Origin: a bacterium
GTDB taxonomy: Bacteria > Bacteroidota > Ignavibacteria > Kapaibacteriales > UBA2268
NCBI GenBank assembly: GCA_024710535.1
Contig: JANJUO010000279.1
Location: 1 to 56,238, forward strand
DNA: 56,238 bases
Direction: 5' to 3'
Of this stretch, positions 1 through 56,238 are shown piece by piece. Under the pieces are notes generated by a model. It saw nothing but the letters and a program-made list of their open reading frames with translations. It had not been told where the DNA came from and did no database searches. A program made the position numbers and the translations under genes. Position 1 is the stretch's first letter. Each line of letters opens with the position of its first letter.

Positions 1-141
1 GGCCAGGTACTTTCGGGCCTTGTCGTCCAGCTTGTCCATCGTGTACCGGCTGGTGACGAACATCACCAGGCCGCCGGGCTTGACGCGATCAATGGTTTTG
101 GCAAAGAAGTAGTCATGCAGCGACAGCGCGCGCTTGGCATA
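1..141. repeat. Terminal overlap copy 1 (identical to 56098-56238)
   Basis: Direct comparison of the first and last lines of the window shows 141/141 identity. The overlap lies inside the methyltransferase-coding part of the giant ORF. Confidence 0.95.
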
Positions 142-3100: not shown

Positions 3101-5922
3101 GATTGGGCATTTTGGCTGGCGCCTTCATTTCCGCCAGGGCCTTGGCCACGGCCTTGCGCATCTTCGGGTTGCTGTCGATCTTGGCCAGCAGGTCGGTCAG
3201 TGCTTTGCTCTTGCTCATTGGTCCCCTTTGCGGTCTTGAGTAGATCGGCGCGCGTCGGCGCCTCGGTGTCACCCAGCAGTGATCCCTGATTCGGGTCGCC
3301 GGCCGCCTCCAGGGCCTCGTAGTAGCGCTGCAGGAACTCGGCAATGCGCCGCGGACTGCGGATGTTGTCGGCCAGGAACTGGAGCAGATCGGCTGCCTCG
3401 GCGGAATACTTCGGCCCGGTCAGGTCGGTCTGACCCAGCTCCTGGGCCACCGTCCAGCCTTTGTCCTTGATCGAAGACAGACCCTCAACGGCCTGCACCA
3501 GGTCGGGCGCAATGTCGGCGTCATAAAGGCTACCGGCCTGCACTCGGTCCCGTGCAGCCGCAATCGAGGGGGCGGCGCGCACCAGGGCCTTGGAGACGTT
3601 GACCAGGTTGTTGTCCAGGCTCTCGGTCATCCGGCGCAGGGTCGGGCTGTCACCGTAGGCCTTGGCCAGGATGGCGTTCTGCATCCGGCGATAGCCGGTA
3701 GTCGACAGCCGCCCGTCACTCTCGATCATGTCCGACTGCTCGGTGATCGGCAGGGTTGCCATGAACTGGCGGATGAAGTCGTAGCTGGTGCTGAAGTCGC
3801 CGTTGTCGTCGGGCTGCAGGCCCTCCAGGCTGGTCAGGCGCCGGGCATCGGCCGAAGCCTGCTCGCTCGGGCTCATGCGCTGGATGGTCGACTGGTTGGC
3901 CTGGCGAGCAAACTCTGCCCGGTTCACCGGTGTGGCGCGAACCCGCACCAGCACTGGCTTGCGCATGCCGTCGACAGCCTCAGGCGTGATGCCGAACTGA
4001 GCGGCGGACTGGCGCAGCCAAGCCTTGTAATCCTCAGCTTTTTGGCCTTGAGCCTGGTACACGCGCTTGAGGGCGATCGTCCGGGCGTTGCCGGACTCCA
4101 CCAGGCCATCAGCGCCCACAATCGGTGCACCGGTGGCGGCGTCGGCGGAAACACCGAGACGCGCGGGATCCAGACGCTGCACGATGCTGGACACCTGCAA
4201 CTCGCTGGCCTGGCGCGATCGGTCGCGCGGCTGAAGCTCGGGAGGGAACAGCGGGTTCTGGCGCAGGTTCTCGTCGTGCGAGGTCACCAGGTCATCGGCA
4301 TCGACGAGGGCGTATTCGCCGTCCAGCTTGACGCCGGCCTCCGTCGAGAAGGATGTCGGCGCCCCTTTGATGGCAGTCGGCCAGGTCCGGGCGATCGAAT
4401 CGCGCTCGGCCTGGATCTGCTGGGCTTGCTGCGCCAGGTCGTTTCGCTCCGTGTCGAAGGCCGGGCCGTAGCCGTTTTCCGGCGACAGTTCGGTCATGCG
4501 CTTTTCCAAGCGCTGCAGCTCGGCACCAAGCTGGTCAGCGCGATCGAGCGCGGTCAGGTTGACCGGTTTGCGCAGCGCGCGCTCGGCCTCGTCAGTCGAC
4601 GAAGTGGCTACCCCAGCGGCTTGAACATTGGAATCGGGTCGTCCCGTGTCGGATACAACGGGGGCGGCGGCTCCATCAGTTCGCGCTGGCGTTGCCGCTT
4701 GATCTTGCCCGGCTTCAGGGATGGCCCCCTCATTGATGACGGCGCCATCGGATCCTTGCGCTTGGTTCGTGACACCTTGATCCCCTGAAAAGCGGTCCCG
4801 AATGCCGCTGTACGCGCCGCGGCCAGCGCCGGCTGGCGCGCCGCCCATGGCGCCCAGCACCAGGTTGGCTGCGGAGTCTTCGCCGATTTCCTTGGTCGGC
4901 ACGACACTGGCCACGCCAATATCAGAGGCAACGCCTTCGCCGACCTCTTGCACGCCCTCCTCGGCACCAGACAGCACAGCGCCTGCCGCGGTTTTTCCGG
5001 CAATCGACTTGCCTGCGGCACGGGTCAGAAGCGGGTCGAGCTTGCCGGTGACCAGCTTGCCGGTGAACCGATCGCCCACCGAGGCCACCGTGCCCTGAAG
5101 AAGCGCAGCAGACTCCGAGGCCTTGTCGAGGGTGAGACGGCGAGCCTCCTCGTAGGACGCCCCACCGTTGACCAGGCGGGCAAAGAACGGGCTTTGCTGC
5201 ATGAGCTCGTCATCGGTCTTGCCGGCGATGAAGCGGCTGGCGGACTCTGCACCTTCGCCCGCGGCCATGGATCCCCCAATCGCGCCGCCGACGTTCGGGC
5301 TCTTGGTCAACAAGGAGCCGACGACGACCGGCAGCATGGACCCGAACACATCGGATGCCTGCATCACAAAGCCGCGGACACTCGGATCCTTGCCGAAATC
5401 GATCTCACCCTTGAAGATGTTGCCGGTGATCTGGCTGTCGGCCACCGCCTGGCGGGTCGCTTCGCTGGTAGTGGCATGGATGGCCTCACGCCCATCCTGG
5501 CCAGCCTTGGCAAGGGAGCGGGCACCGGGGAGATTCGGAATACCAGAGGCTGCGCGCTCGGCGGCCAGGAATCGGACGTCCTTGTCGCGCTGAGTCTCTG
5601 GGCCGTGGATGGTTTCGTCAGTATCGATGCCCGGGTTGTAGATACCCGCCGGCACCATGGAGTCGCCTGAGGCTTCTACGGAGCTTCGGACAAGGGACTT
5701 GACGCCCTTCTCAATGCCCAAGGGGATCGATGCGACCCCAGAGACGACGGCGCCCGCGGCCCGCTTTCCCATGTCCAGGCCAAACTCGGCGATACCGTCA
5801 ATGAAAGACTGCTTCTTGGCGGGCTTTTGAGCTCCGCCTTCAGTCTCGAAATCCTGTTCCCAGGGTTTGGCGCCAGTGTCGGCAGTTTCAGCGGACCAGT
5901 CTTGTTCCCATGGTTTGGACAT
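1..5922 (-). CDS. Giant polyvalent multidomain protein, N-terminal part (ATG 5922); the ORF leaves the window at nt 1 and continues from 56097 downwards on the circle
   Basis: The minus frame with codon starts divisible by 3 has an in-frame TAG at 5926-5928 and then no stop down to nt 1. The track lists no ORF in this frame because it never terminates here. ATG 5922 follows GGGG..AGAG. Hand translation gives ParB-like motifs (LQPRDRS 4216-4236, SGNAR 4081-4095, DGHHQ 2797-2811), RelA/SpoT-like motifs (SGYGQ 1750-1764, AEIQI 1699-1713) and N6-MTase motifs (EPGSGIG ~355-390, NPPF 172-183). Confidence 0.85.
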   Translation of the reverse strand, partial: MSKPWEQDWSAETADTGAKPWEQDFETEGGAQKPAKKQSFIDGIAEFGLDMGKRAAGAVVSGVASIPLGIEKGVKSLVRSSVEASGDSMVPAGIYNPGIDTDETIHGPETQRDKDVRFLAAERAASGIPNLPGARSLAKAGQDGREAIHATTSEATRQAVADSQITGNIFKGEIDFGKDPSVRGFVMQASDVFGSMLPVVVGSLLTKSPNVGGAIGGSMAAGEGAESASRFIAGKTDDELMQQSPFFARLVNGGASYEEARRLTLDKASESAALLQGTVASVGDRFTGKLVTGKLDPLLTRAAGKSIAGKTAAGAVLSGAEEGVQEVGEGVASDIGVASVVPTKEIGEDSAANLVLGAMGGAPAGAGRGAYSGIRDRFSGDQGVTNQAQGSDGAVINEGAIPEAGQDQAATPARTDGAAAPVVSDTGRPDSNVQAAGVATSSTDEAERALRKPVNLTALDRADQLGAELQRLEKRMTELSPENGYGPAFDTERNDLAQQAQQIQAERDSIARTWPTAIKGAPTSFSTEAGVKLDGEYALVDADDLVTSHDENLRQNPLFPPELQPRDRSRQASELQVSSIVQRLDPARLGVSADAATGAPIVGADGLVESGNARTIALKRVYQAQGQKAEDYKAWLRQSAAQFGITPEAVDGMRKPVLVRVRATPVNRAEFARQANQSTIQRMSPSEQASADARRLTSLEGLQPDDNGDFSTSYDFIRQFMATLPITEQSDMIESDGRLSTTGYRRMQNAILAKAYGDSPTLRRMTESLDNNLVNVSKALVRAAPSIAAARDRVQAGSLYDADIAPDLVQAVEGLSSIKDKGWTVAQELGQTDLTGPKYSAEAADLLQFLADNIRSPRRIAEFLQRYYEALEAAGDPNQGSLLGDTEAPTRADLLKTAKGTNEQEQSTDRPAGQDRQQPEDAQGRGQGPGGNEGASQNAQSGQQGAADGQAEWVMFPEDSGTLGIPRALMPQVKVTERPALIAFLKSRGIEHERAAVPASDLKPTQAEFSPKKVRGWMESDTKGDRSVLVSSDGYVLDGHHQWMGSVAANDQAQVIRFNAPIKELLAVVRSFPGVKQSDGANDLTLKRAEAVQDFKDALADLAAIASKHTRAAMVPEDTPGLMPTLVKLFDSAIRIAGTDMKATTKWVKDQLKQDPRFKTFWNKIAPATYNKAALQAMETRPKAAEQGSLFDDLDAATDAVQGDLFDLANMLAETPPKVATINGREYNPARDNFKPPATDTFIAADVLEKARAQIRDLSKAAAPIPISEADRARAEVMIKPLIRRAEDTKAEYDQKVIDIAKKTGALGQMLTTVKSLDSATRKLVNEAMFDANKMYDMLRSTIVVSSYADAQVVLDAIREQFDVLPGRVKNMTDAEIDGKRGSFVPSGYGQVLVNVKLPNGVIAEIQINVPEMLAVKLAEGHALYEIERAEKEGSKARADAVDSQREIYPLAAAAAAARNEASSDRLLPGDMGKSLAGVKASSPVSSSSRNTRPSGNLTNSVASPLVPNSQPGGNLSGTLIGTPLDSNVPQLAVNGYNEPDLFGGDDATAQPGQGNAQGQGARPVQGNGQQGDVGGVRARRSRGDQQQRGDDDAAAARGAKVGQPGADGERQANPRRRSGAPGNGDGAVGGVPAGRDIAPKSGLNYRFGNDDLTYTGSWFSKAEANISAIEVLKRLQKDGRQATADEQKTMAKFIGWGSSELANNLFGDKLNKAASIKESAEKALAAMDKAGKDSLKPGGYDTVGYRRQYVSGDPEFMDAFKALQAVDPQITWYTHKEITRDMIKKVMPDKQTLRWIEMRDRLKALLTPEEFADASRSTQYAHYTSKAVVSSMWRAAQRMGFAGGTILEPGSGIGIFPGLMPEGIAASSSYTGIEFEPMTGGILKQLFPDERILVESFVDTKLPKNFFDVAIGNPPFSGTKILGDPEYAKRALSLHDYFFAKTIDRVKPGGLVMFVTSRYTMDKLDDKARKYLA
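990..1310 (-). CDS. 106-aa helical protein encoded in the +1 frame of the giant ORF (MSPIYSEAMMQLHNLVKETLKAKAPALFKEMDSKGTLAAFVRDAAEEISSNVV...)
   Basis: Third-position GC is 18/20 in this frame and 8/20 in the giant frame in both 1021-1080 and 1201-1260. The pattern reverts to 17/20 for the giant frame in 901-960. The sequence is strongly protein-like, whereas the giant frame reads G/Q/R/D junk. ATG 1310 follows a stop at 1320-1322 and a 48 % GC gap. No clear SD. Confidence 0.6.
   Translation of the reverse strand: MSPIYSEAMMQLHNLVKETLKAKAPALFKEMDSKGTLAAFVRDAAEEISSNVVTMTQQQRAAQKWDSLGPMESAKRIRAADLAHQEMAMAQWVESLQAETSPPSQA
1313..1328. promoter_or_regulatory. Operator-like inverted repeat TAGCCGT-TT-ACGGCTA in an AT-richer gap inside the giant ORF
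   Basis: Perfect 7-bp arms lie between the divergent starts at 1310 (-) and 1361 (+). 1321-1380 is 29/60 GC with no codon periodicity. The core AGCCGTTTAC recurs at 38179-38191, with close variants at the early promoter regions (34565-34579, 36059-36124). A possible extended -10 TGgTACATT lies at 1333-1341 (+). Confidence 0.45.
1361..1579 (+). CDS. Possible 72-aa plus-strand ORF antisense to the giant ORF (MRVPDKFPPGCEFGTNGDATEFVKFPDGRVFRLDEDTGLLALTPAKDL...)
   Basis: ATG 1361 lies 7 nt after GAGAGG (1348-1353). Third codon positions coincide with those of the antisense giant frame, so GC3 is uninformative. First-position G enrichment and amino-acid composition favour the plus strand. The giant-frame translation here is S/P/G-rich and junk-like. 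Confidence 0.35.
   Translation: MRVPDKFPPGCEFGTNGDATEFVKFPDGRVFRLDEDTGLLALTPAKDLPMSPGSNRSDEASLRAAAAAAAKG
3060..3218 (-). CDS. Possible 52-aa ORF in the +1 frame of the giant ORF (MSKSKALTDLLAKIDSNPKMRKAVAKALAEMKAPAKMPNQDSKAQQTARPNG)
   Basis: ATG 3218 sits 5 nt after AAGGGG. In 3121-3180 third-position GC is 19/20 in this frame and 8/20 in the giant frame. The stop TGA (3060-3062) overlaps an in-frame ATG of the giant frame (TGATG) that opens the ParB-like DGHHQ module (MFPEDSGTLGIPRAL...). Confidence 0.45.
   Translation of the reverse strand: MSKSKALTDLLAKIDSNPKMRKAVAKALAEMKAPAKMPNQDSKAQQTARPNG
4608..4748 (-). CDS. Possible 46-aa ORF in the +1 frame of the giant ORF (MAPSSMRGPSLKPGKIKRQRQRELMEPPPPLYPTRDDPIPMFKPLG)
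   Basis: ATG 4748 sits 5 nt after AAGGA. In 4621-4680 the third-position GC is 9/20 in the giant frame and 15/20 in the +1 frame. The giant-frame translation here is a Q/G/D/A/T low-complexity stretch. The +1 signal could also be a composition artefact. Confidence 0.25.
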   Translation of the reverse strand: MAPSSMRGPSLKPGKIKRQRQRELMEPPPPLYPTRDDPIPMFKPLG

Positions 5923-13554: not shown

Positions 13555-13673
13555 CACCAGGCCACCGCAACCGCCAGGCCAAGCAGGCAAAGGATGGCAA
13601 GGCCGATGGCAGCGCCTACGATCACCGCGCCGCCCATGCCTTGCATGAACCAGATGGATTCACGTTCGTACAT
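13554..13673 (-). CDS. Small membrane protein (39 aa) in the lysis cassette
   Basis: MYERESIWFMQGMGGAVIVGAAIGLAILCLLGLAVAVAW. TGATG overlaps occur at both ends (with the endolysin stop and with the Rz start). Confidence 0.5.
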   Translation of the reverse strand: MYERESIWFMQGMGGAVIVGAAIGLAILCLLGLAVAVAW

Positions 13674-45211: not shown

Positions 45212-45711
45212 CTCCACCAAGAGTGCTTGACCCTTGCAGTGGGAGCAGGATGATGTGGTTCGATCGTGCCCACCACGATGTGGTCTTCGGTGACAAAAGG
45301 CGCGAGACGTTGACTGTCACAGACCGAAGCCACGGGAAGGTGGACGGAACGCGCACGCTCAAGGTCGACCCCGACATGCTGATGGACTTTCGTGATCTCC
45401 CCTTTGAAGACAACACATTCAGGTTGGTGGCTTTCGATCCGCCGCACCTGGTCCGCGCCGGTCCGAGATCATGGCTTGCAGCCAAATACGGCAAGCTCGG
45501 TAACGACTGGCGCGACGACCTTCGCCAGGGGTTTGCGGAGTGCTTTCGCGTGCTGCACCCTGATGGCGTGTTGGTCTTCAAATGGAATGAGACCCAGGTG
45601 AAGCTGGGCGAGGTGCTCGCTCTAACTCCCTGCCGACCTCTTTTTGGAAACACCAGTGGGAAAAAAGCAGGCACACACTGGCTTGTATTCATGAAGGAAC
45701 GTGCCACATGA
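45208..45711 (+). CDS. Small DNA methyltransferase (DPPH motif)
   Basis: ATGA overlaps at both ends. LDPCSGS (SAM-binding-like) and FDPPH catalytic motif of amino-methyltransferases. Confidence 0.65.
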   Translation: MTPPRVLDPCSGSRMMWFDRAHHDVVFGDKRRETLTVTDRSHGKVDGTRTLKVDPDMLMDFRDLPFEDNTFRLVAFDPPHLVRAGPRSWLAAKYGKLGNDWRDDLRQGFAECFRVLHPDGVLVFKWNETQVKLGEVLALTPCRPLFGNTSGKKAGTHWLVFMKERAT

Positions 45712-47997: not shown

Positions 47998-48033
47998 AAA
48001 GAAAAAGCCCCGTAAGTCATTGACTTACAGGGC
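47998..48033 (-). terminator. Rho-independent terminator downstream of the tRNA fragment and the giant ORF
   Basis: On the minus strand: GCCCTGTAAGTCAaTGACTTACGGGGC followed by TTTTTCTTT. Confidence 0.6.
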
Positions 48034-48040
48034 GATTCTT

Positions 48041-48090
48041 TGGCGGAGTGGACGGGGCTCGAACCCGCGACCCCCGGCGTGACAGGCCGG
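48041..48090 (-). other. 3' 50 nt of a tRNA-Asp(GUC) gene: probable attP core
   Basis: The reverse complement CCGGCCTGTCACGCCGGGGGTCGCGGGTTCGAGCCCCGTCCACTCCGCCA covers the anticodon stem-loop (CU-GUC-AC), variable loop, T-arm, acceptor 3' strand and CCA, near-identical to E. coli tRNA-Asp. No D-arm or 5' acceptor strand lies upstream. Confidence 0.75.
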
Positions 48091-48195: not shown

Positions 48196-51100
48196 TCAGT
48201 TCAGCTTTTCCCGGACCTCCTGCATCAGCTTGCGCTTCTTCTCGATCTGCACAGCAGCCTGCTCGTCGAACTCCTGGCGGTCAATGCGGCCGGTGGCCAA
48301 CTGACGCTTGAGCTGCCCGATGTTCTTGTCGATCTCCGAGGCCTCGGCCATCGCCTTGGCGCCCAGGTTGCGACGCAGAACGTCGGCCGGGTAGCTGCCC
48401 AGCTTCACACCGAAGGCGCTGGCCATGGCCTGGGGTGTCGACAGTTCGCGGCCAAAGGCGTCGGTGCGACCGGTCATGGATCCAACCACGCCCTCGGTCG
48501 CGTAGGTGTTGGGTAGGCCAACGATGTTCGGGGCGAAAGCCTTATATAGATAGTCACCCACCTTGGCGGCCTTCTCGGCGCCAGTGTCGGTTTCCAGGGT
48601 CAGCGGCTTGCCCGTGAAGGCGGACTTGTTCAGGACGATCTCGCCGGCGATCACCAGCGGGCCGCCCGGCATCAACCCGGGGAACATCGGCACAGCCGCA
48701 TTGCCAGCGCCCACGTCGAACACGTCGCCCACCGGCACCCAGCGGCGGATGTCCAGGTACACCGGCGATCCATGCGCATCGTTCCAGGGCATGCGAATCA
48801 GCTTTGGCACCATCCCCCAGATCCGGCCGGCCTTCTCCTCGGGCAGCATCTTGCGTTCATCGTCATCGCCGCCACCGCCCAACAGAACACCCAGGGCATT
48901 GAGCCCACCGGCCAGCATCATGAGCTTCATGAGCTTGTGTGGCTTCTTGCCCGCAATCTCGAACAGCAGGGGAACCGCCCGATAGGTGAAACTGATGAAC
49001 GGCCAGGCTGTCGAGCGCATTGCCTGCACCCATGGGGCGTTGATGTTGTAGTCCAGGAACGAGCGGCGCGCTTTCTTGCCGGCCGCCAGGTCGTCTGCAC
49101 CATCTTCCTTGGCCTTGAGCCATGCCGCCAGCCGGAATACATCGTCTTCGGCCTGGTACAGATCGATGAGCGCCCCAGCGGCATTGCCCACCGCTTTGCC
49201 GGTCTTCCCAGAGGCCAGGGCTTCCCATGCGGCTGGGAAACGCGCGCCCAGCGCGTGCTGCAAGGCGGCGTAGATGCCGGCCTGAGCGTCCATGGCCTGG
49301 TCGGCGGTGGCTGCCAGCTCGACCTCCAGCTCAGACAGGATCGGGTCAAGCTGCTCCTTGGCAATTTCCTGGGTCACCCAGGATCCGATGTCACCGCCGC
49401 TGTCCTTGTACCGGTTCAAGACCTCCAGCGCCGCGGCCGAGTCGGCAATGCCACCCTTCTTGCCGCTGGCCGCGAGAATGATTCGCAGCGACTTGGCCAC
49501 GTGCACCGCCCGCACGTCCTGCCAGTCGGCCATCACAAAGTTGGACATGACGTTGTTCATGTGGACCGCGGGCGACAAGGCCGTCTTGCTGGTCTTCCAC
49601 ATGCTCAGGATCTTGGCGTAGGCATCGCCGAACGGGCGGAACTGGCCGCCAACCACCTGGCGCAGATCATTCCAGATCGGTCCAGGCAGGTAGTGGCCAG
49701 CCAATGCGCCGTACTTGAGCACGCTCGTGCCAGGGATTTTCGTGTCGGGCACCTTGACCCACTCGTTGGGAGCAAAGGTGTCGCGGTATCGCTCCGAGGC
49801 CTCCACCACCACACCGGGGATGGTCTGCCCTTCGGCCTTGGAGTAGTTCCGTGCCAACCACTCCAGGTAGCGGCCCACCTCCACGTCATGGATCATGGCG
49901 TGCATGGTCTTGGCGATCGCAAAACGGGCTTCATCGACCTCTCCCATCTGCTGGCGCTCATCCTTGGTGAAGTCGCGCCAGAGCACTACATTGCCCGCCT
50001 TGACGTCACGAACCTCCCAGGTGTCGGCCTGGATCCAGTCCGAAAACTGCTGGGGGATGGCCTGGCCAGCGGGCACATACACCACCTTGGACGTGCGGCC
50101 TGGTGCAGCCGGGTCCATGCCGGGCAGTGCCCGGGTGCCGGCGCCAGGCTGGGGGCGCTTTTCCAACCGGATGAACTTCTGTCCCTTGAGCGCGGTGTCG
50201 GCCTTGCCGTCCTTGAGCTTGCGGCCCCACCAGTCGGGCGATGCCGCCTGCATCTTGGACATGGGCTCGGCCTGCACCAGCCCGCGGCCCTTGTATTGAT
50301 CGCCCAGAATCGAAATCACGCGCGATCGTTTGGCCTTTTCCCCGGCGGTCTGCGCCAGGATGTGCTTGGCGTAGGAACGGCGCAGGTAGGCGAAGCGGTT
50401 GCGCTCGAATGCCTCCTTGTCCAGTTGCCCCAAACGAACCGCCTCCTGGCTCAGGTCGTCGATCAGCTTCTGCACTTCCTGCAGCACCTGCACCGACTCC
50501 TCGGGCAGGCCCTGCATCATCGACAGATAGGCCTTGGGGTCGGATCCGTCCATGTTCATCCACTCGTAGGCCACCCGGCTTTCTTCGCGGGTCAGGGTTG
50601 CCAGCTTCTCGATCAGAGTCCCAGCCTTGCGCAGTTGGACGCGCTGGCGCCCCTGCAGCATGATGCGTTGGTCGATGACCGCCTCGGGCACGCCGTAATC
50701 ACTCACGATACCGGCCTTGACCTTCTCGGGAACCATGCGGTCCAGCAGAGCCCCGGCCCGATCGTAGATCGCACCGGTCAGACGCTCGACACCGGTCACC
50801 TTCGTGGCGGCCCTGGCAATCGCATCCAGGGGGGCAGATCCCCCGGCTTTCTTCTGGATGATGGCCTCTGCCCGGTCGGCGACGGTCTTGCCAGCACCGC
50901 CAGGAGGTGCAGAGCGAGACAGCAATGCCTCGGCCGGGTTCTTCTTGCGCCACAGCTCGGCCAGCTTCTCGAAGGTCGGGTAGTCGCGTTCCAGCAAGTC
51001 CTCGATGTCCTTGAAGCCTCGTGCGCGGGCCTCGGCCTGCAGCCAGGCCTCCTGCTTGGCGATGTCCTCGGCCAGGGTTCCAGACAGGCGGGTACCGAAG

Positions 51101-54100
51101 ATCGCTCCAGCGCGCCCCGGCCGCTTGCCGGCAACGTAGTCCCGGGCAGCCCCGACCAGTTCAGCAACAAACAGATCAGCGCGCTGTTGCTGGGTCAGCG
51201 TCCCGTCCAGCCAATCGGTCAGCTTCTGCGCCAGGGCGGTGTATCCACGCCCGTCCAACCAGTCGCGAACATTGAGCACCAGCTTGCGCCAGCCGCGAAG
51301 CTGTGCCAGTTGCGCGGTCGGGATGTCGACGATCACCTCCTCGGTGGCCACCACATCGGAGAGCTTCCCGCGCTTCTGCAGCTCGGTTGCCGCCTTGCGC
51401 ACACTGGCGTTCTGCGCATGGATCAAGCGCATCGCCGACTTCAGAGACGTGCCCAAAATGGCGCGCAGGCCGTAGTGGGCGGCTTCGTGCTCCACCAGCA
51501 CGTGCTCGGCACGCGCCTCATCGGCCAGACCAGAGGCGAACAGGTAGAGCTCGCCGTCGTGCATGGCGCCCTCAACGTCGTACCAGGCATCCTGGCGGAT
51601 GATGTACTCGCGAAGGGCGCGTGGCGCCTTGGATGGATCCGGGAGCACGTGCACCCGCGGCATGTTGGGCATGCCGGCTTTCACGCGCTTGGCCAGGGCC
51701 TGCAGTCGGTCGAAGTCGAGCTTATCGGTGTTGCCATCACGTGCACGGAGCGAAAGCCGCGGGCTATCCGCTTCGGCCTGGGTTTCCTCGACTTGCAGCT
51801 TGGCAACCCACTCCTCGGGCGCGCCGCCATTCGTCTCGATGGCCTTCATGATGGCCGCCGATTCGTTGACCGCCTTGACATCAAACCCCAGACCATCGGC
51901 CTTGCGCTCGACGCGGTAGGTCTTGTCGGTGCTGTCGGACTTGATGGCGTCCTCGATGGCCTGGGCCTCCTTGATCTTGTCGGCCAACATGGCAGACATG
52001 GGGAAGGGTGCGCTCAGACGTTCGCGCAGCGCATCCATCTGGGCCCGTGCTTCGGTGATGCGCTCCCGCATCTTGACCGGCAGGCGTGCCACGTCGGCCA
52101 CGGCGTTCTGAGCGCGCATGGCCAGGCCCGACAGGTTCGGTTTGATGTCGTAGGACTCGTGCAGGAACTTCGGCTCTGGCGTGCCCAGCACCAGGCGGGT
52201 GACGTACTGGCCGGCAACCGTCTCGCCTCCGAAAACCACCGGAAAGCCGGAGATTTCGGCAACGGTACGCGGCTTCGTCTCCTGGGCGGCGTTCAGCTTG
52301 TCGAACTCGGCAACCAGGGCCTCGGCCCACTTGGCGCGCTCGGTGAACGCCTTGCCCCCCGCCTTGGCGATGAACTTGTCGCCGCTCAGATCCTTGGCCA
52401 TGGCGGCGGCCTTCTCTGCCTCTGGCAGGCGCTTCTCGTTGAACTCCACCGTGACGCTGGCCGCGTCGAACTGCGACCGGAACCGCTGGCGCTGGTCTTC
52501 ATGGGCCTGGTACAGGCGCTGCAGCTTCTCGATCTCAGCACGGGCGCCAGCCAGTTGGAGCACGCGAGGATCTTCCGCCACCATAGCCGCTGCCAGGTCA
52601 AACTGGCTCTGGCTGTCCAGATCCTCGATCTCGGTCAGGCTTTCATCGCCGGACATGGCCTGGTCGATGAAATACTGCTTCGAGGCCAGCATCTTCCACA
52701 TGTTCTCGTCATAGGTGCCCTTGGCCGCGTAGGCGTAGATCTGCACCAATGGGTTCTTGTTGCCCTGGCGGACGATGCGGCCCTCCCGCTGCTCCAGGTC
52801 GGCCGGGTACCACGGGCTGTCCAGGTGGAACAGGGCCTTGAGTCGCTGCTGTGCGTTGACGCCAGTCCCCATGTTCTTGGAGCTACCCACCAGCACGCGA
52901 ACACGGCCAGCGTTGACGTCCTTGAACAGCTTGAGCTTGTCGGCCGACTTCTTGTAGTCGGACATAAACGCGACCTGGTTCATGGGCACACCCGCGTCGC
53001 GCATGCGCTTCTCGAACCAGGCACGGGCGTTGAAGCCGCGGCTCTCGGCCACGCCTTCGCCAAACCCCAAGTCAGAGAACACCATCATCGAGGCGCCTTT
53101 GTTGGGCTCGACATTCCCGGCCTTGTCTCGGTACTCCAGATCGGCAGTTTCCTTGAACTTGGCGATGACGTCGTCGATCATCCGGTTCAGCTTGGAGTCC
53201 GGGTCGCTGGGCAGCGATGGGTTGATGAACCGCATGTCGATGGCAGCCAGGCGGCCGTCACCAATGATCCGAATCATCGGATCCGGGTTGTTCGGCTGAT
53301 CCTTGCTCGGCTTCCAGGCACGGGATTCCTCGACGCGGCGCTCCAGCTCCTTCTGGTACTCCGCATAGGCGGGGGTCTTGGGCGTGACGGTGATGCTTCG
53401 TGATCCGCCTTCGACCTTGGGGCGCTTGTCACCCAGCAAAGCGGCCAGGTGGTCAGACGTCAGCACGTCCGCGAACTCCCTGAACATCTGGGTCAGCGCG
53501 GGCACCTTCACGAACTTGGTGAACCGGGTCACCGGCGTGTATCGCCCAGCGGCATCGGGCTCCAACGTCGTGCGTTCGCGGCCGAACATGGCTGCCCACG
53601 AATCGAAGTCGTCGATGTTGCGGTCAATCAGGGCCTGACGGTCCATGAACTTCTGCACCGTGTAGAGCTCGGCCAGGGTGTTGGTGATCACCGTGCCGGA
53701 TGCCATCACCAGGGAGCGGCCGGGCTGCTTTTCCTCCAGGTACCGGGACTTCATATACAGGTCGAACGCCTTGGCGGACCCCTGGGGACTGATGCCCTTG
53801 ACCTGGCGGGTGGTGGCGAAGTCCAGCTTGCGGTACTCGTGCGCCTCGTCGACCATCAGGAAGTCGACGCCCAGCTCGTCGAAGCGGACGTTCTTGTCCT
53901 TGCCTTCTGAGGACATGGCGGCTTCCAGCTTCTGCTCCATGTTCTCGATCTGCTTTTCGATCTGCTTGACCCGGGGGGACTTTCGGCCGCCGCCTTCGCT
54001 CTTGTCGTCCTGCTGGGCCTCGCTCAAGGCTGCCTGCATGAACTCCAGTTGCTCCTCGATCATCTTGCGCTTGAAATCGCCATCCAGATCCAGCAGCTTG

Positions 54101-56238
54101 AACGCACTGTGGGTGATGATCACGCCATCCAGATCGGACAGAGCCACGCGCGAGACGAAGCGGCGGCGGTTGTCGGTGTGGAAGTTGTTTTCATCGGCCA
54201 CCATCAGGCGGGCAGCCGGGTACAGCAGTTGCCACTCGTGGGCAAACTGCTTGAGCATGTGGTTGGGCACGACAACCATGGGCTTCTTGATCAACCCCAG
54301 GCGTTTCTGCTCCATGGCGGCAATGACCATCTGGAAGGTCTTGCCGGATCCAACCGCGTGCGCCAGATAGGTGTTGCCCTGCTGGATGATGCGCCAGGCC
54401 CCGCGCTTGACGTGATCGAAGACCTGGAAGGCCTTGGACGTGCCAGGCAGCGTCAGGTGCGATCCGTCGAACTTGCGCGAGACGGTGGTATTGAACCGGT
54501 CGTTGTAGATCTTGACCAGGCGATCGGTGCGCTCAGAATCGTTCCAGACCCAGGCCTGGAATGCTTCGCGCATGGCGTCCAGCTTCTGGTTGGCTGCTTC
54601 CGTGCCAGCGGCATCAAAAACGCTCTTGCGGTCTTTGCCCGTGCCCTCGGTCTTGGTGATGCGAACCGGGCGACCGGTCAGCGCGTGCTCGAGCAGGTCG
54701 GTCGCGTTGCGTTGATCGGTACCGTGATCAGCAGTTGCCCGCGTGGTTTTGCCGCCGCTGATCTCCTTGACGATCCACTGCTTGGTGGCGTCGTTGAACT
54801 CGACCTCGGCGCGAACCCCGGCCAGGTCATACAGGAACTGAGCGTAATCAGACCCAGGAATCCAGTTCTCTCCCAGGCCGGGGGAGATCTGGCTGGGCAC
54901 CTTCGGCGCGGGCTGGGCGGCTTCCAGGGCGGTGACGTTGCGCTCATAACGGCGGTCTGCCTGGGCCGCGGCGCGCACGGCTTCGAGCTTCTTGCGGACG
55001 TTGCCGCTCAGATACTCGTCGGCCGTCTGCCAGCCGGCCTCGGGATCCTGATAGATCGTCGATCCCAAGGCCTCGATGGTGTCCTGCTCGGACATACCTA
55101 CGCGCTGGGCGATCAGCTCAACATCCACACGACCAACGTCGTTGAGGACCGTCAGCAATGCGTCCACCGGTGAATTGATGGCCGGCTCCTCAGGCTTACC
55201 GAGGACGCGCTGGGTCAGGAACGCCGAGGGCTTGATTTCCCCGGTGTCGTCGTTGATCGTCTCCAGCGCGGCGACCAAGCTGTAATCGGGGTCATCGCGC
55301 AGCTTCTGCAGCAGCGGAAACACCCGAACGGTTGCCTCGTCCGTGTACTCCTGGCCGGTGTCCTCGTCGATCGCCTTGGTCTTGACGACCTTGGTGGTGA
55401 ACTGGTTGACCTGGCCATGCTTCTTCGTGAAGCGCTCGTATTCCTTCTGCAGGGCAGCAAGGCTGGGCTGCCAGTCGCCGTCCGTGAGCTGGTCGTAGTG
55501 GGCCTGCTTGAGAGCATCGCGCAGCGGCACAAAGTCCTTGATCAGCTCAACATCCTTGGCCGACTTCAGTTGCACCCGCTGGCCGACACCCTCCTCCCGG
55601 ATCATCAGCACGCCAGCGTCGGTGACGTAGTAATTGCCCTCCTTCTGGGCCTTCGGGTTGAAATCAATCTCCCGGACCTTGGCGGCCTCGGCCGCGCTGC
55701 CGCGCTCGGCTTTGTAGATGTCGGCCGGCAGCGTTTCCACCGCCTTGGCAAATTGCTCCTCGATGTCGCCAGCCAACGGGGTGACGGTGTACTCACGGGC
55801 CCGGCGCATTGATCCCTCGGCGGAGTGCTGGCCCAAGACCATTTCCGGGTGCGCGGCGAAGTATTCGTTGATCATGGCTGGCCGGTCGGCGTCGCCTTCC
55901 TTGTTGCCGCTGACCATCAGGGCTTTGCCGTCTGCGGTCTTGGCCTCGGCCACGCCCAGCCAGGGCTGCGCGTAGGTGAAGGTTTCCCCGGGCACCTTCT
56001 TGCGCAGAAACAGCACGTCAGTGACCACTTCGGTCCCGGCATTGGCCTTGAACGCGGTTTGCGGCAGACGGATGGCGCCCACCAGGTCGGCGCGCTCGGC
56101 CAGGTACTTTCGGGCCTTGTCGTCCAGCTTGTCCATCGTGTACCGGCTGGTGACGAACATCACCAGGCCGCCGGGCTTGACGCGATCAATGGTTTTGGCA
56201 AAGAAGTAGTCATGCAGCGACAGCGCGCGCTTGGCATA
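48196..56238 (-). CDS. Giant polyvalent multidomain protein, C-terminal part (2,680 codons plus stop); DarB-like N6-methyltransferase end, SF2 DEAH helicase, HExxH metallopeptidase-like region, hydrophobic C-terminal region
   Basis: The track ORF 48196..56163 extends in frame to the window end and matches nt 1-141. Motifs: Walker A GSGKT 54337-54351, DEAH 53839-53850, helicase C motifs (GTGVNAQ, EQREGRIVRQGN), HEAAH 51475-51489. Hydrophobic stretches lie near the C-terminus (e.g. KLMKLMMLAGGLNALGVLLGGGG). Confidence 0.85.
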   Translation of the reverse strand, partial: YAKRALSLHDYFFAKTIDRVKPGGLVMFVTSRYTMDKLDDKARKYLAERADLVGAIRLPQTAFKANAGTEVVTDVLFLRKKVPGETFTYAQPWLGVAEAKTADGKALMVSGNKEGDADRPAMINEYFAAHPEMVLGQHSAEGSMRRAREYTVTPLAGDIEEQFAKAVETLPADIYKAERGSAAEAAKVREIDFNPKAQKEGNYYVTDAGVLMIREEGVGQRVQLKSAKDVELIKDFVPLRDALKQAHYDQLTDGDWQPSLAALQKEYERFTKKHGQVNQFTTKVVKTKAIDEDTGQEYTDEATVRVFPLLQKLRDDPDYSLVAALETINDDTGEIKPSAFLTQRVLGKPEEPAINSPVDALLTVLNDVGRVDVELIAQRVGMSEQDTIEALGSTIYQDPEAGWQTADEYLSGNVRKKLEAVRAAAQADRRYERNVTALEAAQPAPKVPSQISPGLGENWIPGSDYAQFLYDLAGVRAEVEFNDATKQWIVKEISGGKTTRATADHGTDQRNATDLLEHALTGRPVRITKTEGTGKDRKSVFDAAGTEAANQKLDAMREAFQAWVWNDSERTDRLVKIYNDRFNTTVSRKFDGSHLTLPGTSKAFQVFDHVKRGAWRIIQQGNTYLAHAVGSGKTFQMVIAAMEQKRLGLIKKPMVVVPNHMLKQFAHEWQLLYPAARLMVADENNFHTDNRRRFVSRVALSDLDGVIITHSAFKLLDLDGDFKRKMIEEQLEFMQAALSEAQQDDKSEGGGRKSPRVKQIEKQIENMEQKLEAAMSSEGKDKNVRFDELGVDFLMVDEAHEYRKLDFATTRQVKGISPQGSAKAFDLYMKSRYLEEKQPGRSLVMASGTVITNTLAELYTVQKFMDRQALIDRNIDDFDSWAAMFGRERTTLEPDAAGRYTPVTRFTKFVKVPALTQMFREFADVLTSDHLAALLGDKRPKVEGGSRSITVTPKTPAYAEYQKELERRVEESRAWKPSKDQPNNPDPMIRIIGDGRLAAIDMRFINPSLPSDPDSKLNRMIDDVIAKFKETADLEYRDKAGNVEPNKGASMMVFSDLGFGEGVAESRGFNARAWFEKRMRDAGVPMNQVAFMSDYKKSADKLKLFKDVNAGRVRVLVGSSKNMGTGVNAQQRLKALFHLDSPWYPADLEQREGRIVRQGNKNPLVQIYAYAAKGTYDENMWKMLASKQYFIDQAMSGDESLTEIEDLDSQSQFDLAAAMVAEDPRVLQLAGARAEIEKLQRLYQAHEDQRQRFRSQFDAASVTVEFNEKRLPEAEKAAAMAKDLSGDKFIAKAGGKAFTERAKWAEALVAEFDKLNAAQETKPRTVAEISGFPVVFGGETVAGQYVTRLVLGTPEPKFLHESYDIKPNLSGLAMRAQNAVADVARLPVKMRERITEARAQMDALRERLSAPFPMSAMLADKIKEAQAIEDAIKSDSTDKTYRVERKADGLGFDVKAVNESAAIMKAIETNGGAPEEWVAKLQVEETQAEADSPRLSLRARDGNTDKLDFDRLQALAKRVKAGMPNMPRVHVLPDPSKAPRALREYIIRQDAWYDVEGAMHDGELYLFASGLADEARAEHVLVEHEAAHYGLRAILGTSLKSAMRLIHAQNASVRKAATELQKRGKLSDVVATEEVIVDIPTAQLAQLRGWRKLVLNVRDWLDGRGYTALAQKLTDWLDGTLTQQQRADLFVAELVGAARDYVAGKRPGRAGAIFGTRLSGTLAEDIAKQEAWLQAEARARGFKDIEDLLERDYPTFEKLAELWRKKNPAEALLSRSAPPGGAGKTVADRAEAIIQKKAGGSAPLDAIARAATKVTGVERLTGAIYDRAGALLDRMVPEKVKAGIVSDYGVPEAVIDQRIMLQGRQRVQLRKAGTLIEKLATLTREESRVAYEWMNMDGSDPKAYLSMMQGLPEESVQVLQEVQKLIDDLSQEAVRLGQLDKEAFERNRFAYLRRSYAKHILAQTAGEKAKRSRVISILGDQYKGRGLVQAEPMSKMQAASPDWWGRKLKDGKADTALKGQKFIRLEKRPQPGAGTRALPGMDPAAPGRTSKVVYVPAGQAIPQQFSDWIQADTWEVRDVKAGNVVLWRDFTKDERQQMGEVDEARFAIAKTMHAMIHDVEVGRYLEWLARNYSKAEGQTIPGVVVEASERYRDTFAPNEWVKVPDTKIPGTSVLKYGALAGHYLPGPIWNDLRQVVGGQFRPFGDAYAKILSMWKTSKTALSPAVHMNNVMSNFVMADWQDVRAVHVAKSLRIILAASGKKGGIADSAAALEVLNRYKDSGGDIGSWVTQEIAKEQLDPILSELEVELAATADQAMDAQAGIYAALQHALGARFPAAWEALASGKTGKAVGNAAGALIDLYQAEDDVFRLAAWLKAKEDGADDLAAGKKARRSFLDYNINAPWVQAMRSTAWPFISFTYRAVPLLFEIAGKKPHKLMKLMMLAGGLNALGVLLGGGGDDDERKMLPEEKAGRIWGMVPKLIRMPWNDAHGSPVYLDIRRWVPVGDVFDVGAGNAAVPMFPGLMPGGPLVIAGEIVLNKSAFTGKPLTLETDTGAEKAAKVGDYLYKAFAPNIVGLPNTYATEGVVGSMTGRTDAFGRELSTPQAMASAFGVKLGSYPADVLRRNLGAKAMAEASEIDKNIGQLKRQLATGRIDRQEFDEQAAVQIEKKRKLMQEVREKLN
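56098..56238. repeat. Terminal overlap copy 2 (identical to 1-141)
   Basis: Same comparison as copy 1. The offset of 56,097 is divisible by 3, so the reading frame is preserved across the join. Confidence 0.95.

What the first reader, a model, noticed from the sequence alone, without database searches (positions are those of the whole stretch)
48196..56238. Wrap-around 4,607-codon ORF: a polyvalent, probably virion-delivered protein taking about a quarter of the genome
Joining 5922->142 with 56238->48196 gives 13,824 nt without a stop.

Domain order read from motifs:
1. Gly/Ala-rich N-terminal region.
2. ParB-like domain (LQPRDRS...SGNAR).
3. ParB/Srx-like domain (DGHHQ).
4. RelA/SpoT-like nucleotidyltransferase.
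5. N6-adenine-type methyltransferase (NPPF).
6. SF2 DEAH helicase.
7. HExxH metallopeptidase-like region.
8. About 700 aa of C-terminal region with hydrophobic segments.

The methyltransferase-helicase pairing is that of P1 DarB, an injected antirestriction protein. A roughly 4,600-aa virion-associated multidomain protein is published for Bcep22/BcepIL02, and polyvalent proteins of phages and conjugative elements have been described by sequence analysis. The gene class is therefore known. This domain set and its function are not established here.
Basis: partly seen in the sequence, partly recalled or inferred. Interest (0 to 1): 0.7.

Follow-up and report, generated by a model that had tools for sequence, protein, structure and literature searches.

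The report
Giant injected multi-enzyme phage protein
One gene filling a quarter of this temperate phage genome encodes a 4,607-residue, cysteine-free chain of enzymes that is most likely packed into the virus particle and injected with the DNA to disarm the host; the gene class is known, but this domain set and its tail module are uncharacterised.

Summary
The window is a circular assembly with an exact 141-bp overlap. The minus-strand ORF 5922->142 joined to 56238->48199 is 4,607 codons, 24.6% of a 56,097-bp genome. Independent linear contigs span the join, and the gene is under purifying selection (98 synonymous, 22 non-synonymous differences).

All eight motif-based domain calls hold or are sharpened:
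- The N-terminal region matches the membrane-binding N-terminal domain of N4 virion RNA polymerase and Bcep22 gp75.
- A P1 DdrB-like ParB segment is present.
- A second ParB/sulfiredoxin fold is present.
- The RelA/SpoT domain is specifically Tas1-like ((p)ppApp synthetase type).
- A DarB-like LPD36, N6A methylase (NPPF) and SF2 helicase (DEAH) block is present.
- The HExxH region is a zincin-like peptidase.
- The C-terminal module is about 900 aa. It has no Pfam, NCBIfam or PHROG match and sits at the C-terminus of more than 3,400 clusters of giant proteins.

Gene order matches the Bcep22 late operon. The protein has no cysteine (P about 5e-19), a published mark of ejected podophage proteins.

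Verdict: a virion-delivered polyvalent protein, a new variant of the Bcep22 gp75 / N4 gp50 / P1 Dar kind. Delivery and enzyme activities are inferred, not shown.

The parts
142..5922 (-). First part of the giant ORF: aa 1-1927, with ATG at 5922-5920
   Evidence: Gene calls on independent contigs start at the same ATG.
48196..56238 (-). Second part of the giant ORF: aa 1928-4607 plus TGA at 48198-48196
   Evidence: Contigs L009-L015 span the junction.
1..141 (.). Exact copy of 56098-56238, the overlap of a circular assembly. It must be removed before joining.
4603..5493 (-). N-module, aa 144-440. It is helical and Gly/Ala-rich, with a hydrophobic segment at aa 186-204. It is homologous to Bcep22 gp75 aa 360-647 and to the lipid-binding N-terminal domain of N4 gp50 (aa 237-455).
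   Evidence: PHROG 2206 'virion RNA polymerase' E 1.3e-11. hhalign against gp75: 99.2%, E 8e-20. hhalign against N4 gp50: 92.4%, E 5e-7. The N4 N-terminal domain is membrane-inserting (PMC13434306).
3268..4344 (-). P1 DdrB-like segment, aa 527-885. It contains the ddrB-ParB domain (aa 530-662, window 3937-4335) and about 220 aa homologous to DdrB aa 170-407.
   Evidence: Pfam PF18763 E 4.4e-38. 35% identity to P1 DdrB aa 34-407, E 9e-51.
2680..3069 (-). Second ParB/sulfiredoxin-fold domain, aa 952-1081, with DGHHQ at aa 1038
   Evidence: 47% identity to gp75 aa 975-1090. AF2 model pLDDT 86. Foldseek BFVD matches to ParB/Sulfiredoxin proteins: TMt 0.82-0.84, rmsd 1.6-2.2 A, E about 2e-8. PDB pNOB8 ParB-N: E 2e-3.
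2278..2670 (-). Conserved helical domain of unknown function, aa 1085-1215
   Evidence: High pLDDT in the model. Found in 31 of 145 family representatives. No database match.
1528..2130 (-). Tas1-like RelA/SpoT nucleotide pyrophosphokinase domain, aa about 1265-1465
   Evidence: Pfam RelA_SpoT 27.6 bits. Foldseek: Tas1 6ox6_A TMt 0.69 and RelQ 6fgk TMt 0.72. Profile against PDB sequences: Tas1 E 4.5e-16, next hit 0.08.
142..1056 (-). Start of the DarB-like block (aa 1623-1927). It holds the LPD36-like helices (GWGS at aa 1696) and the N6-adenine methylase, with NPPF at aa 1914 (window 172-183).
   Evidence: The LPD36 GxGU motif is as described in PMC5512222.
51952..56238 (-). Rest of the DarB-like block (aa 1928-3356): end of the methylase, an inter-domain region, and the SF2/SNF2-like helicase at aa 2520-3110 (window 52690-54462). 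Helicase motifs are GSGKT at aa 2557, DEAH at aa 2724 and QREGR at aa 3077.
   Evidence: 46% identity to Bcep22 gp75 aa 1628-3170. phrog_10089 E 2e-212. Pfam ResIII and Helicase_C. Collinear with P1 DarB aa 91-1678 at 21-31% identity.
50905..51762 (-). Zincin-like metallopeptidase module, aa 3420-3705. HEAAH is at aa 3511-3515 (window 51475-51489), with an invariant glutamate at E3561.
   Evidence: Shuffles as an independent module. H3515 and E3561 are conserved in 44 of 44 homologues; 33 have HExxH and about 10 have HExxxH. This matches the published description. HMM hit on the HExxH region of gp75, aa 3518-3591, i-E 4.6e-7.
48199..50886 (-). C-module, aa 3712-4607. It is mostly helical, with two family-conserved hydrophobic segments at aa 4363-4384 (48868-48933) and aa 4441-4463 (48631-48699). 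Its function is unknown.
   Evidence: 3,413 cluster representatives at E<=1e-3, and it is C-terminal in all full-length proteins of the top 150. No Pfam, NCBIfam, PHROG or PDB match. Distant collinear homology to the gp75-type C-terminus: hhalign 94.8%, E 5e-8. Hydropathy.
48007..48033 (-). Intrinsic terminator-like hairpin (12-bp stem plus a T run), 163 nt downstream of the stop codon
   Evidence: Bcep22 has an annotated terminator directly after gp75.

Best explanation
The gene encodes a virion-packaged, ejected polyvalent protein of a temperate Bcep22-like podophage that infects a Burkholderiales host.

It is built like N4 virion RNA polymerase, as a delivery chassis carrying cargo. The N-terminal helical module anchors the chain to the inner membrane and ejectosome. 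A zincin-like peptidase and a roughly 900-aa C-terminal module close the chain; they probably serve capsid incorporation, membrane association or both. Between these ends, enzymatic domains are joined by low-complexity linkers.

The cysteine-free chain is proposed to leave the capsid through the tail and cross the periplasm domain by domain, then refold at the cytoplasmic face next to the entering DNA. The proposed roles there are:
- The DarB-like methylase-helicase and the two ParB-fold domains act on or along the incoming DNA to blunt restriction, as the P1 Dar proteins do.
- The Tas1-like pyrophosphokinase makes (p)ppApp or a related nucleotide, transiently lowering ATP and rewiring host physiology.
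- The peptidase may cut the chain into working units.

Shown here: the ORF, its selection, the domain identities, the synteny, the cysteine absence and the modular shuffling. Inferred: packaging, ejection, and every enzymatic activity and target.
For: ORF and junction.

Domains.

Synteny. The order is internal virion protein (665 aa), GNAT, virion protein (284 aa), PAPS reductase, a 511-aa protein, then the giant gene followed by a terminator. This is the Bcep22 gp67-gp75 order.

Homology to four proteins that are experimentally virion-associated:
- Bcep22 gp75 and JC1 gp69; JC1 gp69 gave 51 peptides in CsCl-purified virions (PMC9144972).
- N4 gp50 N-terminal domain.
- P1 DdrB and P1 DarB.

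Cysteine absence. There are 0 Cys in 4,607 aa, against 0.9% in 35 other ORFs of the window, giving P about 5e-19. Bcep22 gp75 has 0 of 4,602 and N4 gp50 has 0 of 3,500. Across 145 family representatives the Cys frequency is 0.017%. Cysteine suppression is a published hallmark of ejected N4-like proteins (PMC11445570).

Chassis plus cargo. The C-module is C-terminal in every full-length protein among the top 150 hits. Those 2,000 aa or longer show 21 different internal architectures. Hydrogenophaga P0046 equals this protein minus aa 1539-3433. A Giesbergeria relative carries an N-terminal glucosaminidase and gp75 carries an SLT domain.
Against: - There is no experimental datum for this phage.
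- The C-module has no recognisable fold; its model has pLDDT 53 and gave no Foldseek hits. Its role is therefore a guess.
- The C-module is not detectably related to the N4 gp50 C-terminal domain.
- P1 DarB and DdrB do contain cysteines (9 and 2), so the cysteine argument is not universal.
- A Tas1-type enzyme is a lethal toxin in its known setting, and it is unclear how a phage would profit from it.
- Pfam does not recognise the peptidase, the second ParB domain or LPD38 in this protein.
Confidence: 0.75

Rival explanations
1. The protein is mainly a machine for getting the genome in, and is not mainly an antirestriction or host-takeover toolkit. In this reading it is anchored in the inner membrane by its N-module and C-module. 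Its SNF2-like translocase would pull the DNA out of the capsid, playing the part that transcription by vRNAP plays in N4. The other domains would be accessories.
For: - The N-module is homologous to the membrane-binding N-terminal domain of N4 gp50.
- The C-module has conserved hydrophobic segments.
- The helicase has intact ATPase motifs.
- The gene occupies the position of an essential ejection protein at the end of the structural operon.
- N4-like phages use the injected enzyme as an 'ejection motor' (PMC11445570).
Against: Only about 22 of 120 full-length C-module proteins carry the helicase, and close relatives such as P0046 lack it entirely. It therefore cannot be the generic import motor of the family. 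Its closest characterised relative, P1 DarB, is a non-essential antirestriction factor.
Confidence: 0.12
2. The protein is not packaged. It would be a late-expressed cytoplasmic enzyme complex that modifies progeny DNA (methylation) and manipulates the host before lysis.
For: The methylase could protect progeny DNA in trans. No virion data exist for this phage.
Against: - Total cysteine avoidance is not expected of a cytoplasmic enzyme.
- The protein shares modules with four virion proteins.
- It sits inside the structural operon.
- Relatives carry peptidoglycan hydrolase domains, which make sense only on entry.
Confidence: 0.08
3. The ORF is an artefact: a chimeric join of two contig ends, or a decaying pseudogene kept open by high G+C content.
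For: The gene is split by the window ends. In 63% G+C DNA, long antisense ORFs do occur, such as 48772-53403 (+), 1,543 codons.
Against: - Six independent linear contigs cross the junction without indels, and one carries a complete 4,606-aa call.
- Synonymous to non-synonymous differences are 98:22.
- GC3 is 0.84, against 0.66 for the antisense ORF.
- Domain homology runs along the whole length.
Confidence: 0.01

Closest known systems
Bcep22 gp75, BcepIL02 gp76 and JC1 gp69 'DarB-like antirestriction protein' (Lessievirus; phrog_10089)
   Same: - Same size (4,602 aa against 4,607 aa) and same genomic position at the end of the late operon, followed by a terminator.
- Homologous N-module (hhalign 99.2%).
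- Second ParB/Srx domain at 47% identity.
- LPD36-methylase-helicase block at 46% identity over about 1,600 aa.
- HExxH peptidase at the collinear position.
- Distantly related, collinear C-terminal region.
- Zero cysteines.

   Different: - This protein lacks the N-terminal SLT transglycosylase and LPD3.
- Pfam LPD38 is not detected in it.
- It has a P1 DdrB-like ParB segment and a Tas1-like RelA/SpoT domain that gp75 lacks.
- About half of the sequence (aa 1-143, 441-955, 1074-1622, 3357-4607) is not BLAST-alignable to gp75.
- The phage DNA has no megablast match in 50,697 phage records.

Phage P1 Dar system (DarB and DdrB, separate head proteins)
   Same: - DarB: the same LPD36, N6A methylase (NPPF) and SF2 helicase order, collinear at 21-31% identity.
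- DdrB: aa 527-885 of this protein matches DdrB aa 34-407 at 35% identity.
- In P1 both are packed into the head, and DdrB aids DarB incorporation.

   Different: - Here the two are parts of one polypeptide, with a Tas1-like domain between them.
- No homologues of DarA, Hdf, DdrA or Ulx were looked for or seen.
- The capsid-targeting signal of P1 DarB is its own N-terminal 30 residues, whereas here the DarB block is internal.
- The P1 proteins contain cysteines.
- P1 is a myovirus.
N4 gp50 and DEV gp71 virion RNA polymerase (Schitoviridae ejection protein)
   Same: - A giant, single-chain, cysteine-free protein.
- A homologous stretch of the N-terminal membrane-binding domain.
- Cargo in the middle.
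- An HExxH peptidase-like region followed by a large C-terminal domain.
- Long low-complexity linkers, giving a beads-on-a-string layout.

   Different: There is no RNA polymerase domain here; the cargo is DNA-modifying and nucleotide-signalling enzymes. The C-terminal domains are not detectably related. The phage type is different: temperate, with an integrase, and Bcep22-like.
Tas1, the Pseudomonas aeruginosa type VI secretion effector ((p)ppApp synthetase; PDB 6ox6)
   Same: It is the best PDB relative of aa about 1265-1465 by profile (E 4.5e-16) and by fold (TMt 0.69, 24% identity). The D-x-x-R, G-Y and E-I-Q-I/V-N-x-P-E-M motifs align.
   Different: Tas1 is a stand-alone toxin domain delivered by a type VI secretion system and is paired with an immunity protein. 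Here the domain sits inside a phage structural-operon protein. Its product and target are untested.

Membership tests
Phage-type polyvalent proteins (Iyer et al. 2017, PMC5512222) | Several (2-15) distinct effector or enzymatic domains in one polypeptide | tested here: met
   At least seven recognisable domains.
Phage-type polyvalent proteins (Iyer et al. 2017, PMC5512222) | Encoded among late or virion genes of a phage or prophage | tested here: met
   Terminase, portal, major head protein, internal virion protein and tail fibre genes lie upstream on the same strand.
Phage-type polyvalent proteins (Iyer et al. 2017, PMC5512222) | Contains hub domains of the class: zincin-like peptidase, DdrB-ParB, and the N6A methylase-SF2 helicase dyad with LPD36 | tested here: met
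Phage-type polyvalent proteins (Iyer et al. 2017, PMC5512222) | Transferred into the host together with the DNA | not testable with these tools
   Only indirect support: the cysteine absence and homology to packaged proteins.
Bcep22 gp75 family (phrog_10089, 'DarB-like antirestriction') | Collinear homology over the full length | tested here: not met
   BLASTP aligns only aa 956-1073 and 1623-3356. Profiles add aa 144-440, the HExxH region and aa 4125-4388. PHROG covers profile positions of about 411-627 and 1772-3236 out of 4,647.
Bcep22 gp75 family (phrog_10089, 'DarB-like antirestriction') | N-terminal SLT lytic transglycosylase domain | tested here: not met
   gp75 has SLT at aa 74-165. 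No such hit in this protein at E<=5.
Bcep22 gp75 family (phrog_10089, 'DarB-like antirestriction') | C-terminal LPD38 domain (PF18857) | tested here: inconclusive
   gp75 has LPD38 at aa 4283-4487. Pfam finds none in this protein. The region just upstream is homologous by profile-profile comparison (94.8%, E 5e-8), and weaker collinear hits follow.
Bcep22 gp75 family (phrog_10089, 'DarB-like antirestriction') | Position after the gp74-like virion protein, at the end of the late operon | tested here: met
P1 DarB-type methylase-helicase | LPD36 (GxGU), gamma-class N6A methylase (NPPY/F) and SF2 helicase, in that order | tested here: met
   GWGS at aa 1696, NPPF at 1914, GSGKT at 2557, DEAH at 2724 and QREGR at 3077. 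Pfam Eco57I, N6_Mtase, ResIII and Helicase_C. Collinear BLASTP to DarB.
P1 DarB-type methylase-helicase | Protects incoming DNA from type I restriction | not testable with these tools
   This needs plating assays.
P1 DdrB | DdrB-like ParB domain followed by the DdrB middle region | tested here: met
   Pfam E 4.4e-38. 35% identity over 385 columns.
P1 DdrB | Own C-terminal zincin peptidase (HELGH at aa 872 of DdrB) directly following | tested here: not met
   The peptidase of this protein lies about 2,500 aa downstream. It shows no detectable similarity to the HExxH region of DdrB.
RelA/SpoT homologue synthetases, Tas1-like branch | RSH synthetase fold with conserved catalytic motifs | tested here: met
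   Pfam 27.6 bits against a cut-off of 27. Model pLDDT 86. TMt 0.69-0.72 to Tas1 and RelQ. Tas1 E 4.5e-16 with aligned D-x-x-R and E-I-Q-x-N motifs.
RelA/SpoT homologue synthetases, Tas1-like branch | Makes (p)ppApp rather than (p)ppGpp or pyrophosphorylated tRNA | not testable with these tools
   Only similarity ranking is available: Tas1 4.5e-16, against 0.08 for a GTP pyrophosphokinase.
N4 gp50-type ejected giant protein | N-terminal membrane-binding domain | tested here: met
   phrog_2206 E 1.3e-11. hhalign 92.4%: aa 175-280 of this protein against N4 aa 237-358, which overlaps the N4 membrane-spanning helices at aa 224-278.
N4 gp50-type ejected giant protein | T7-like RNA polymerase core | tested here: not met
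   No polymerase family in the Pfam, PHROG or NCBIfam scans.
N4 gp50-type ejected giant protein | Suppression of cysteine | tested here: met
   0 of 4,607 residues. N4 gp50 has 0 of 3,500. The criterion is published.

The most novel reading that the evidence does not exclude
The N-module together with the peptidase and the roughly 900-aa C-module may form a general, still undescribed protein-injection chassis. Thousands of podophage lineages would use it to deliver interchangeable enzymes into the host.

In this phage the chassis would inject a Tas1-type (p)ppApp synthetase. That would make it a phage-delivered alarmone and ATP-depletion enzyme, switching off ATP-dependent defences at the moment of DNA entry. 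It would work next to a fused DdrB-DarB antirestriction unit.
Probability: 0.3. Interest if true: 0.7.

Novelty: new variant of a known kind. Interest (0 to 1): 0.45.

Why it matters
- **Links three model systems.** Until now they have been treated separately: Bcep22 gp75, the P1 Dar proteins and N4 virion RNA polymerase. The protein joins P1's DdrB and DarB in one chain. The JC1 paper (PMC9144972) reported no DdrB homologue in Bcep22-like phages.
- **A dark domain.** The roughly 900-aa C-terminal module is absent from Pfam, NCBIfam and PHROGs. Yet it ends more than 3,400 clusters of giant cysteine-free proteins. It is an obvious target for structural work on how 500-kDa proteins are packed and ejected.
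- **A testable idea.** An injected Tas1-like enzyme raises the possibility that phages use (p)ppApp synthesis or ATP depletion at entry.
- **A possible tool.** The chassis-plus-cargo layout suggests a natural platform for delivering foreign proteins into Gram-negative cells.

Tried and rejected
- Megablast of the gene against 50,697 phage records: no match.
- tblastn of the C-terminal 1,374 aa and of the N-terminal 520 aa against phages: essentially nothing.
- phmmer of both halves against PDB sequences: nothing.
- Pfam at E<=5 on all unassigned segments: only noise.
- NCBIfam: only generic helicase and methylase fragments.
- AlphaFold2 of the C-module with a 19-sequence alignment: pLDDT 53. 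Foldseek against PDB gave no hit below E=1, so no fold assignment is made.
- Profiles of the C-module against single sequences of gp75 and N4 gp50: not significant. Only the profile-profile comparison with a 95-sequence gp75-type alignment reached 94.8%.
- Peptidase profile against the HExxH of P1 DdrB: no relation.
- Second ParB domain against the first by hhalign: the right motif aligns, but only at E 0.035. The assignment rests on Foldseek instead.
- ARAGORN finds no tRNA in the window. The tRNA-like stretch is a 3' fragment, not a gene.
- The antisense 1,543-codon ORF was rejected as a G+C artefact because its GC3 is 0.66.
- The P1 Dar paper PMC6011833 is not held.
Full report
**1. The observation**

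The first 141 bases of the window are identical to its last 141. The window is therefore a circular, or circularly permuted, 56,097-bp genome that was opened inside a gene. After dropping the duplicate, the minus strand is open for 4,608 codons. The ORF runs from ATG at 5922 down to 142, continues from 56238 down to 48199, and ends with TGA at 48198-48196. That gives 4,607 aa, or 24.6% of the genome.

The join is real. A 42.9-kb linear contig from another assembly (L009) is 100% identical over 9,941 nt across the junction. Five further contigs are 98.8-98.9% identical without any indel, and one of them (L013) carries a complete 4,606-aa gene call. Against that variant there are 98 synonymous and 22 non-synonymous codon differences. 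GC3 is 0.84 in this frame and 0.66 in the long antisense ORF. The gene is real and under purifying selection.

**2. What kind of phage this is**

Upstream on the same strand lie the terminase large subunit, portal, major head protein and tail-fibre-like proteins. They are followed by an internal virion protein (665 aa), a GNAT acyltransferase, a virion structural protein (284 aa), a PAPS-reductase/methyltransferase fusion and a 511-aa protein. The giant gene comes next, followed by a strong terminator. This is the gene order gp67-gp75 plus terminator of Burkholderia phage Bcep22.

The opposite arm carries an integrase and a RecT-like recombinase. A 50-nt exact copy of the 3' part of tRNA-Asp(GTC) of Hydrogenophaga and many other Burkholderiales lies 106 nt downstream of the giant gene. 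The nucleotide sequence has no megablast match among 50,697 phage records. This is therefore a temperate, distant Bcep22-like phage of a betaproteobacterial host.

**3. Anatomy of the protein, N to C**

(a) *aa 144-440, the N-module.* It is Gly/Ala-rich and helical, with a hydrophobic stretch at aa 186-204. It is a genuine domain:
- A small family profile aligns it to Bcep22 gp75 aa 360-647 (hhalign 99.2%, E 8e-20).
- It also aligns to N4 virion RNA polymerase gp50 aa 237-455 (92.4%, E 5e-7).
- PHROG 'virion RNA polymerase' matches it at E 1.3e-11.
- In N4 this region holds the predicted membrane-spanning helices (aa 224-278) of an N-terminal domain that inserts into nanodiscs and anchors the ejected enzyme to the inner membrane (PMC13434306).

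(b) *aa 527-885.* This segment matches P1 DdrB aa 34-407 at 35% identity. It includes the Pfam ddrB-ParB domain (E 4.4e-38).

It is 47% identical to gp75 aa 975-1090. Pfam does not see it. A pLDDT-86 model superposes on small phage ParB/sulfiredoxin proteins with TM 0.82-0.84 and rmsd 1.6-2.2 A.

(d) *aa 1085-1215.* A confident helical domain with no match in any database.

(e) *aa about 1265-1465.* A RelA/SpoT synthetase fold:
- Pfam scores it just above the cut-off.
- Foldseek gives TM 0.69-0.72 to Tas1 and RelQ.
- The family profile finds the type VI effector Tas1, a (p)ppApp synthetase, at E 4.5e-16. The next PDB sequence, a GTP pyrophosphokinase, scores only 0.08.

(f) *aa 1623-3356, the DarB block.* It holds LPD36-like helices with the GxGU motif (GWGS at aa 1696), an N6-adenine methylase (NPPF at aa 1914) and an SF2/SNF2-like helicase (GSGKT, DEAH, QREGR). 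It is 46% identical to gp75 and collinear with P1 DarB at 21-31% identity.

(g) *aa 3420-3705, the peptidase.* This module shuffles independently among relatives. In 44 diverse homologues H3515 and E3561 are invariant. Thirty-three have HExxH and about ten have HExxxH. This is the helix-HExxH-helix-Glu signature, including the HExxxH variant, described for the zincin-like peptidases of polyvalent proteins (PMC5512222). Its profile also picks out the HExxH region of gp75 at the collinear place.

(h) *aa 3712-4607, the C-module.* See section 4.

Low-complexity linkers separate the units. For example, 55% of aa 1501-1600 are P/G/S/Q/N/T.

**4. The C-module**

A profile of this region finds 3,413 cluster representatives (1,139 at E<=1e-30) among 1.84 billion proteins. 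In every full-length protein among the best 150 it sits at the extreme C-terminus of a protein of 2,000-5,980 aa.

It has no Pfam, NCBIfam, PHROG or PDB relative. Its structure could not be predicted with confidence: the model has pLDDT 53 and no Foldseek hit. Two moderately hydrophobic segments, aa 4363-4384 and 4441-4463, are conserved across 141 members.

It is distantly and collinearly related to the C-terminal region of Bcep22 gp75. That is the region carrying Pfam LPD38. Profile-profile comparison gives 94.8% and E 5e-8, aligning aa 4125-4388 of this protein with gp75 aa 4032-4283. LPD38 itself is not detected here.

**5. Modularity**

Among 120 representatives of 2,000 aa or longer that carry the C-module I counted 21 different arrangements of the modules defined above. 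Five representatives share this protein's full arrangement.

A Hydrogenophaga intermedia prophage protein (P0046, 2,609 aa) equals this protein without aa 1539-3433. The window's gene therefore looks like that scaffold with a Bcep22-type DarB block inserted between two linkers.

Other relatives carry ART-PolyVal, MuF_C, LPD3, LPD38 or an N-terminal glucosaminidase. Bcep22 gp75 has an N-terminal SLT domain.

**6. Is it delivered with the DNA?**

This was not tested, and cannot be tested with these tools. Four independent lines point that way.
- Its position inside the structural operon.
- Homology to proteins found in virions: JC1 gp69 gave 51 peptides from CsCl-purified virions (PMC9144972); P1 DarB and DdrB are head proteins (PMC9024508); N4 gp50 is an ejected protein (PMC13434306).
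- Relatives carry cell-wall hydrolase domains.
- The complete absence of cysteine.

On the last point, there are 0 Cys in 4,607 residues against 0.9% in 35 other ORFs of the window, giving P about 5e-19. There are also none in Bcep22 gp75 or N4 gp50. Cysteine makes up 0.017% of residues over 145 family representatives. Suppression of cysteine is a published feature of the ejected proteins of N4-like phages and is ascribed to passage through the oxidising periplasm (PMC11445570).

**7. Most likely mechanism**

The protein is the counterpart, in this phage lineage, of N4 gp50. It is a beads-on-a-string chain that leaves the capsid through the tail and the ejection channel. Its N-module stays anchored at the inner membrane, and it refolds next to the entering DNA.

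Its cargo is not an RNA polymerase. It is a set of DNA-directed and nucleotide-directed enzymes: two ParB-fold domains, a methylase-helicase of the DarB type and a Tas1-like pyrophosphokinase. By analogy with P1 Dar, the first three would protect the incoming genome from restriction. The Tas1-like domain would perturb adenine nucleotide pools or signalling. The peptidase may release the units. The C-module may serve capsid incorporation or membrane insertion.

All of these functional steps are inference.

**8. Rivals**

- The helicase could be a DNA-import motor. This is unlikely as a general role, because most family members, including close relatives, lack it.
- The protein could be a non-packaged late enzyme. 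Section 6 argues against this.
- The ORF could be an artefact. refute this.

**9. Comparison and novelty**

This protein is not a full-length member of the gp75 family. It lacks SLT, LPD3 and a detectable LPD38, and about half of it does not align to gp75.

Three things are new relative to characterised examples:
- the fusion of DdrB-like and DarB-like parts in one chain;
- a Tas1-like domain within it;
- a widespread but unannotated C-terminal module.

I file it as a new variant of a known kind, of moderate interest.

Noticed in passing
window 48041-48090 (-), with terminator 48007-48033 (-) and integrase 45708-46805 (+): There is a 50-nt exact copy of the 3' part (anticodon stem to CCA) of tRNA-Asp(GTC) of Hydrogenophaga and many other Burkholderiales. 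It lies 106 nt downstream of the giant gene. ARAGORN calls no tRNA here and Rfam scores it below threshold (22.8 bits). It is a probable attP core, so in the prophage the giant gene would sit at one end.
   Followed up: partly
window 1-141 and 56098-56238: An exact 141-bp terminal duplication. From my own knowledge, 141 is the largest k-mer of a common metagenome assembler, so this looks like the signature of a circular assembly rather than a biological terminal repeat.
   Followed up: partly
window 48772-53403 (+): A 1,543-codon ORF antisense to the giant gene. Its GC3 is 0.66, against 0.84 for the sense frame. It is most likely a by-product of high G+C content and GC3-rich codons, not a gene.
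   Followed up: yes
window 5982-7517 (-) and 8928-9782 (-): The 511-aa protein just upstream (at the gp74 position, with no PHROG match) and the 284-aa virion structural protein also have no cysteine. Their neighbours have 3-9 cysteines. They are candidates for co-ejected partner proteins, analogous to N4 gp51 and gp52.
   Followed up: no
window 7514-9073 (-): A PAPS reductase fused to a SAM-dependent methyltransferase domain. Bcep22 gp73 is annotated only as a PAPS reductase. It has 9 cysteines and sits between two cysteine-free virion genes. Gene callers on other contigs start it 52 codons later, giving 467 aa.
   Followed up: no
window 13673-14593 (-): A 306-aa ORF inside the structural region has a weak endolysin-family match (phrog_669, E 2.5e-10). 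It may supply the cell-wall hydrolase activity that the giant protein lacks, unlike Bcep22 gp75 (SLT) and the Giesbergeria relative (glucosaminidase).
   Followed up: no
L007 10001-15676 (Hydrogenophaga intermedia GCA_005938115.1): This 1,891-aa relative (P0002) starts in the middle of the DdrB-like part and lacks the DarB block. It lies among ordinary chromosomal genes with no phage genes within 10 kb. It looks like a prophage remnant or a retained fragment next to an old attachment site.
   Followed up: partly
L009-L018 (Logan assemblies SRR19748632, SRR35204268-82, ERR9698304): The same phage, at 98.8-100% identity in the giant gene, recurs in at least 15 contigs from three sequencing-run accession series, so it is a circulating population rather than a single observation.
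   Followed up: partly
L028 and L051 (Hydrogenophaga sp. ANAO-22 and H. pseudoflava): The 35-nt tRNA-Asp 3' fragment occurs in these genomes at places where ARAGORN finds no tRNA gene within the 8-kb loci. These could be prophage junctions (attR or attL) of related phages.
   Followed up: no
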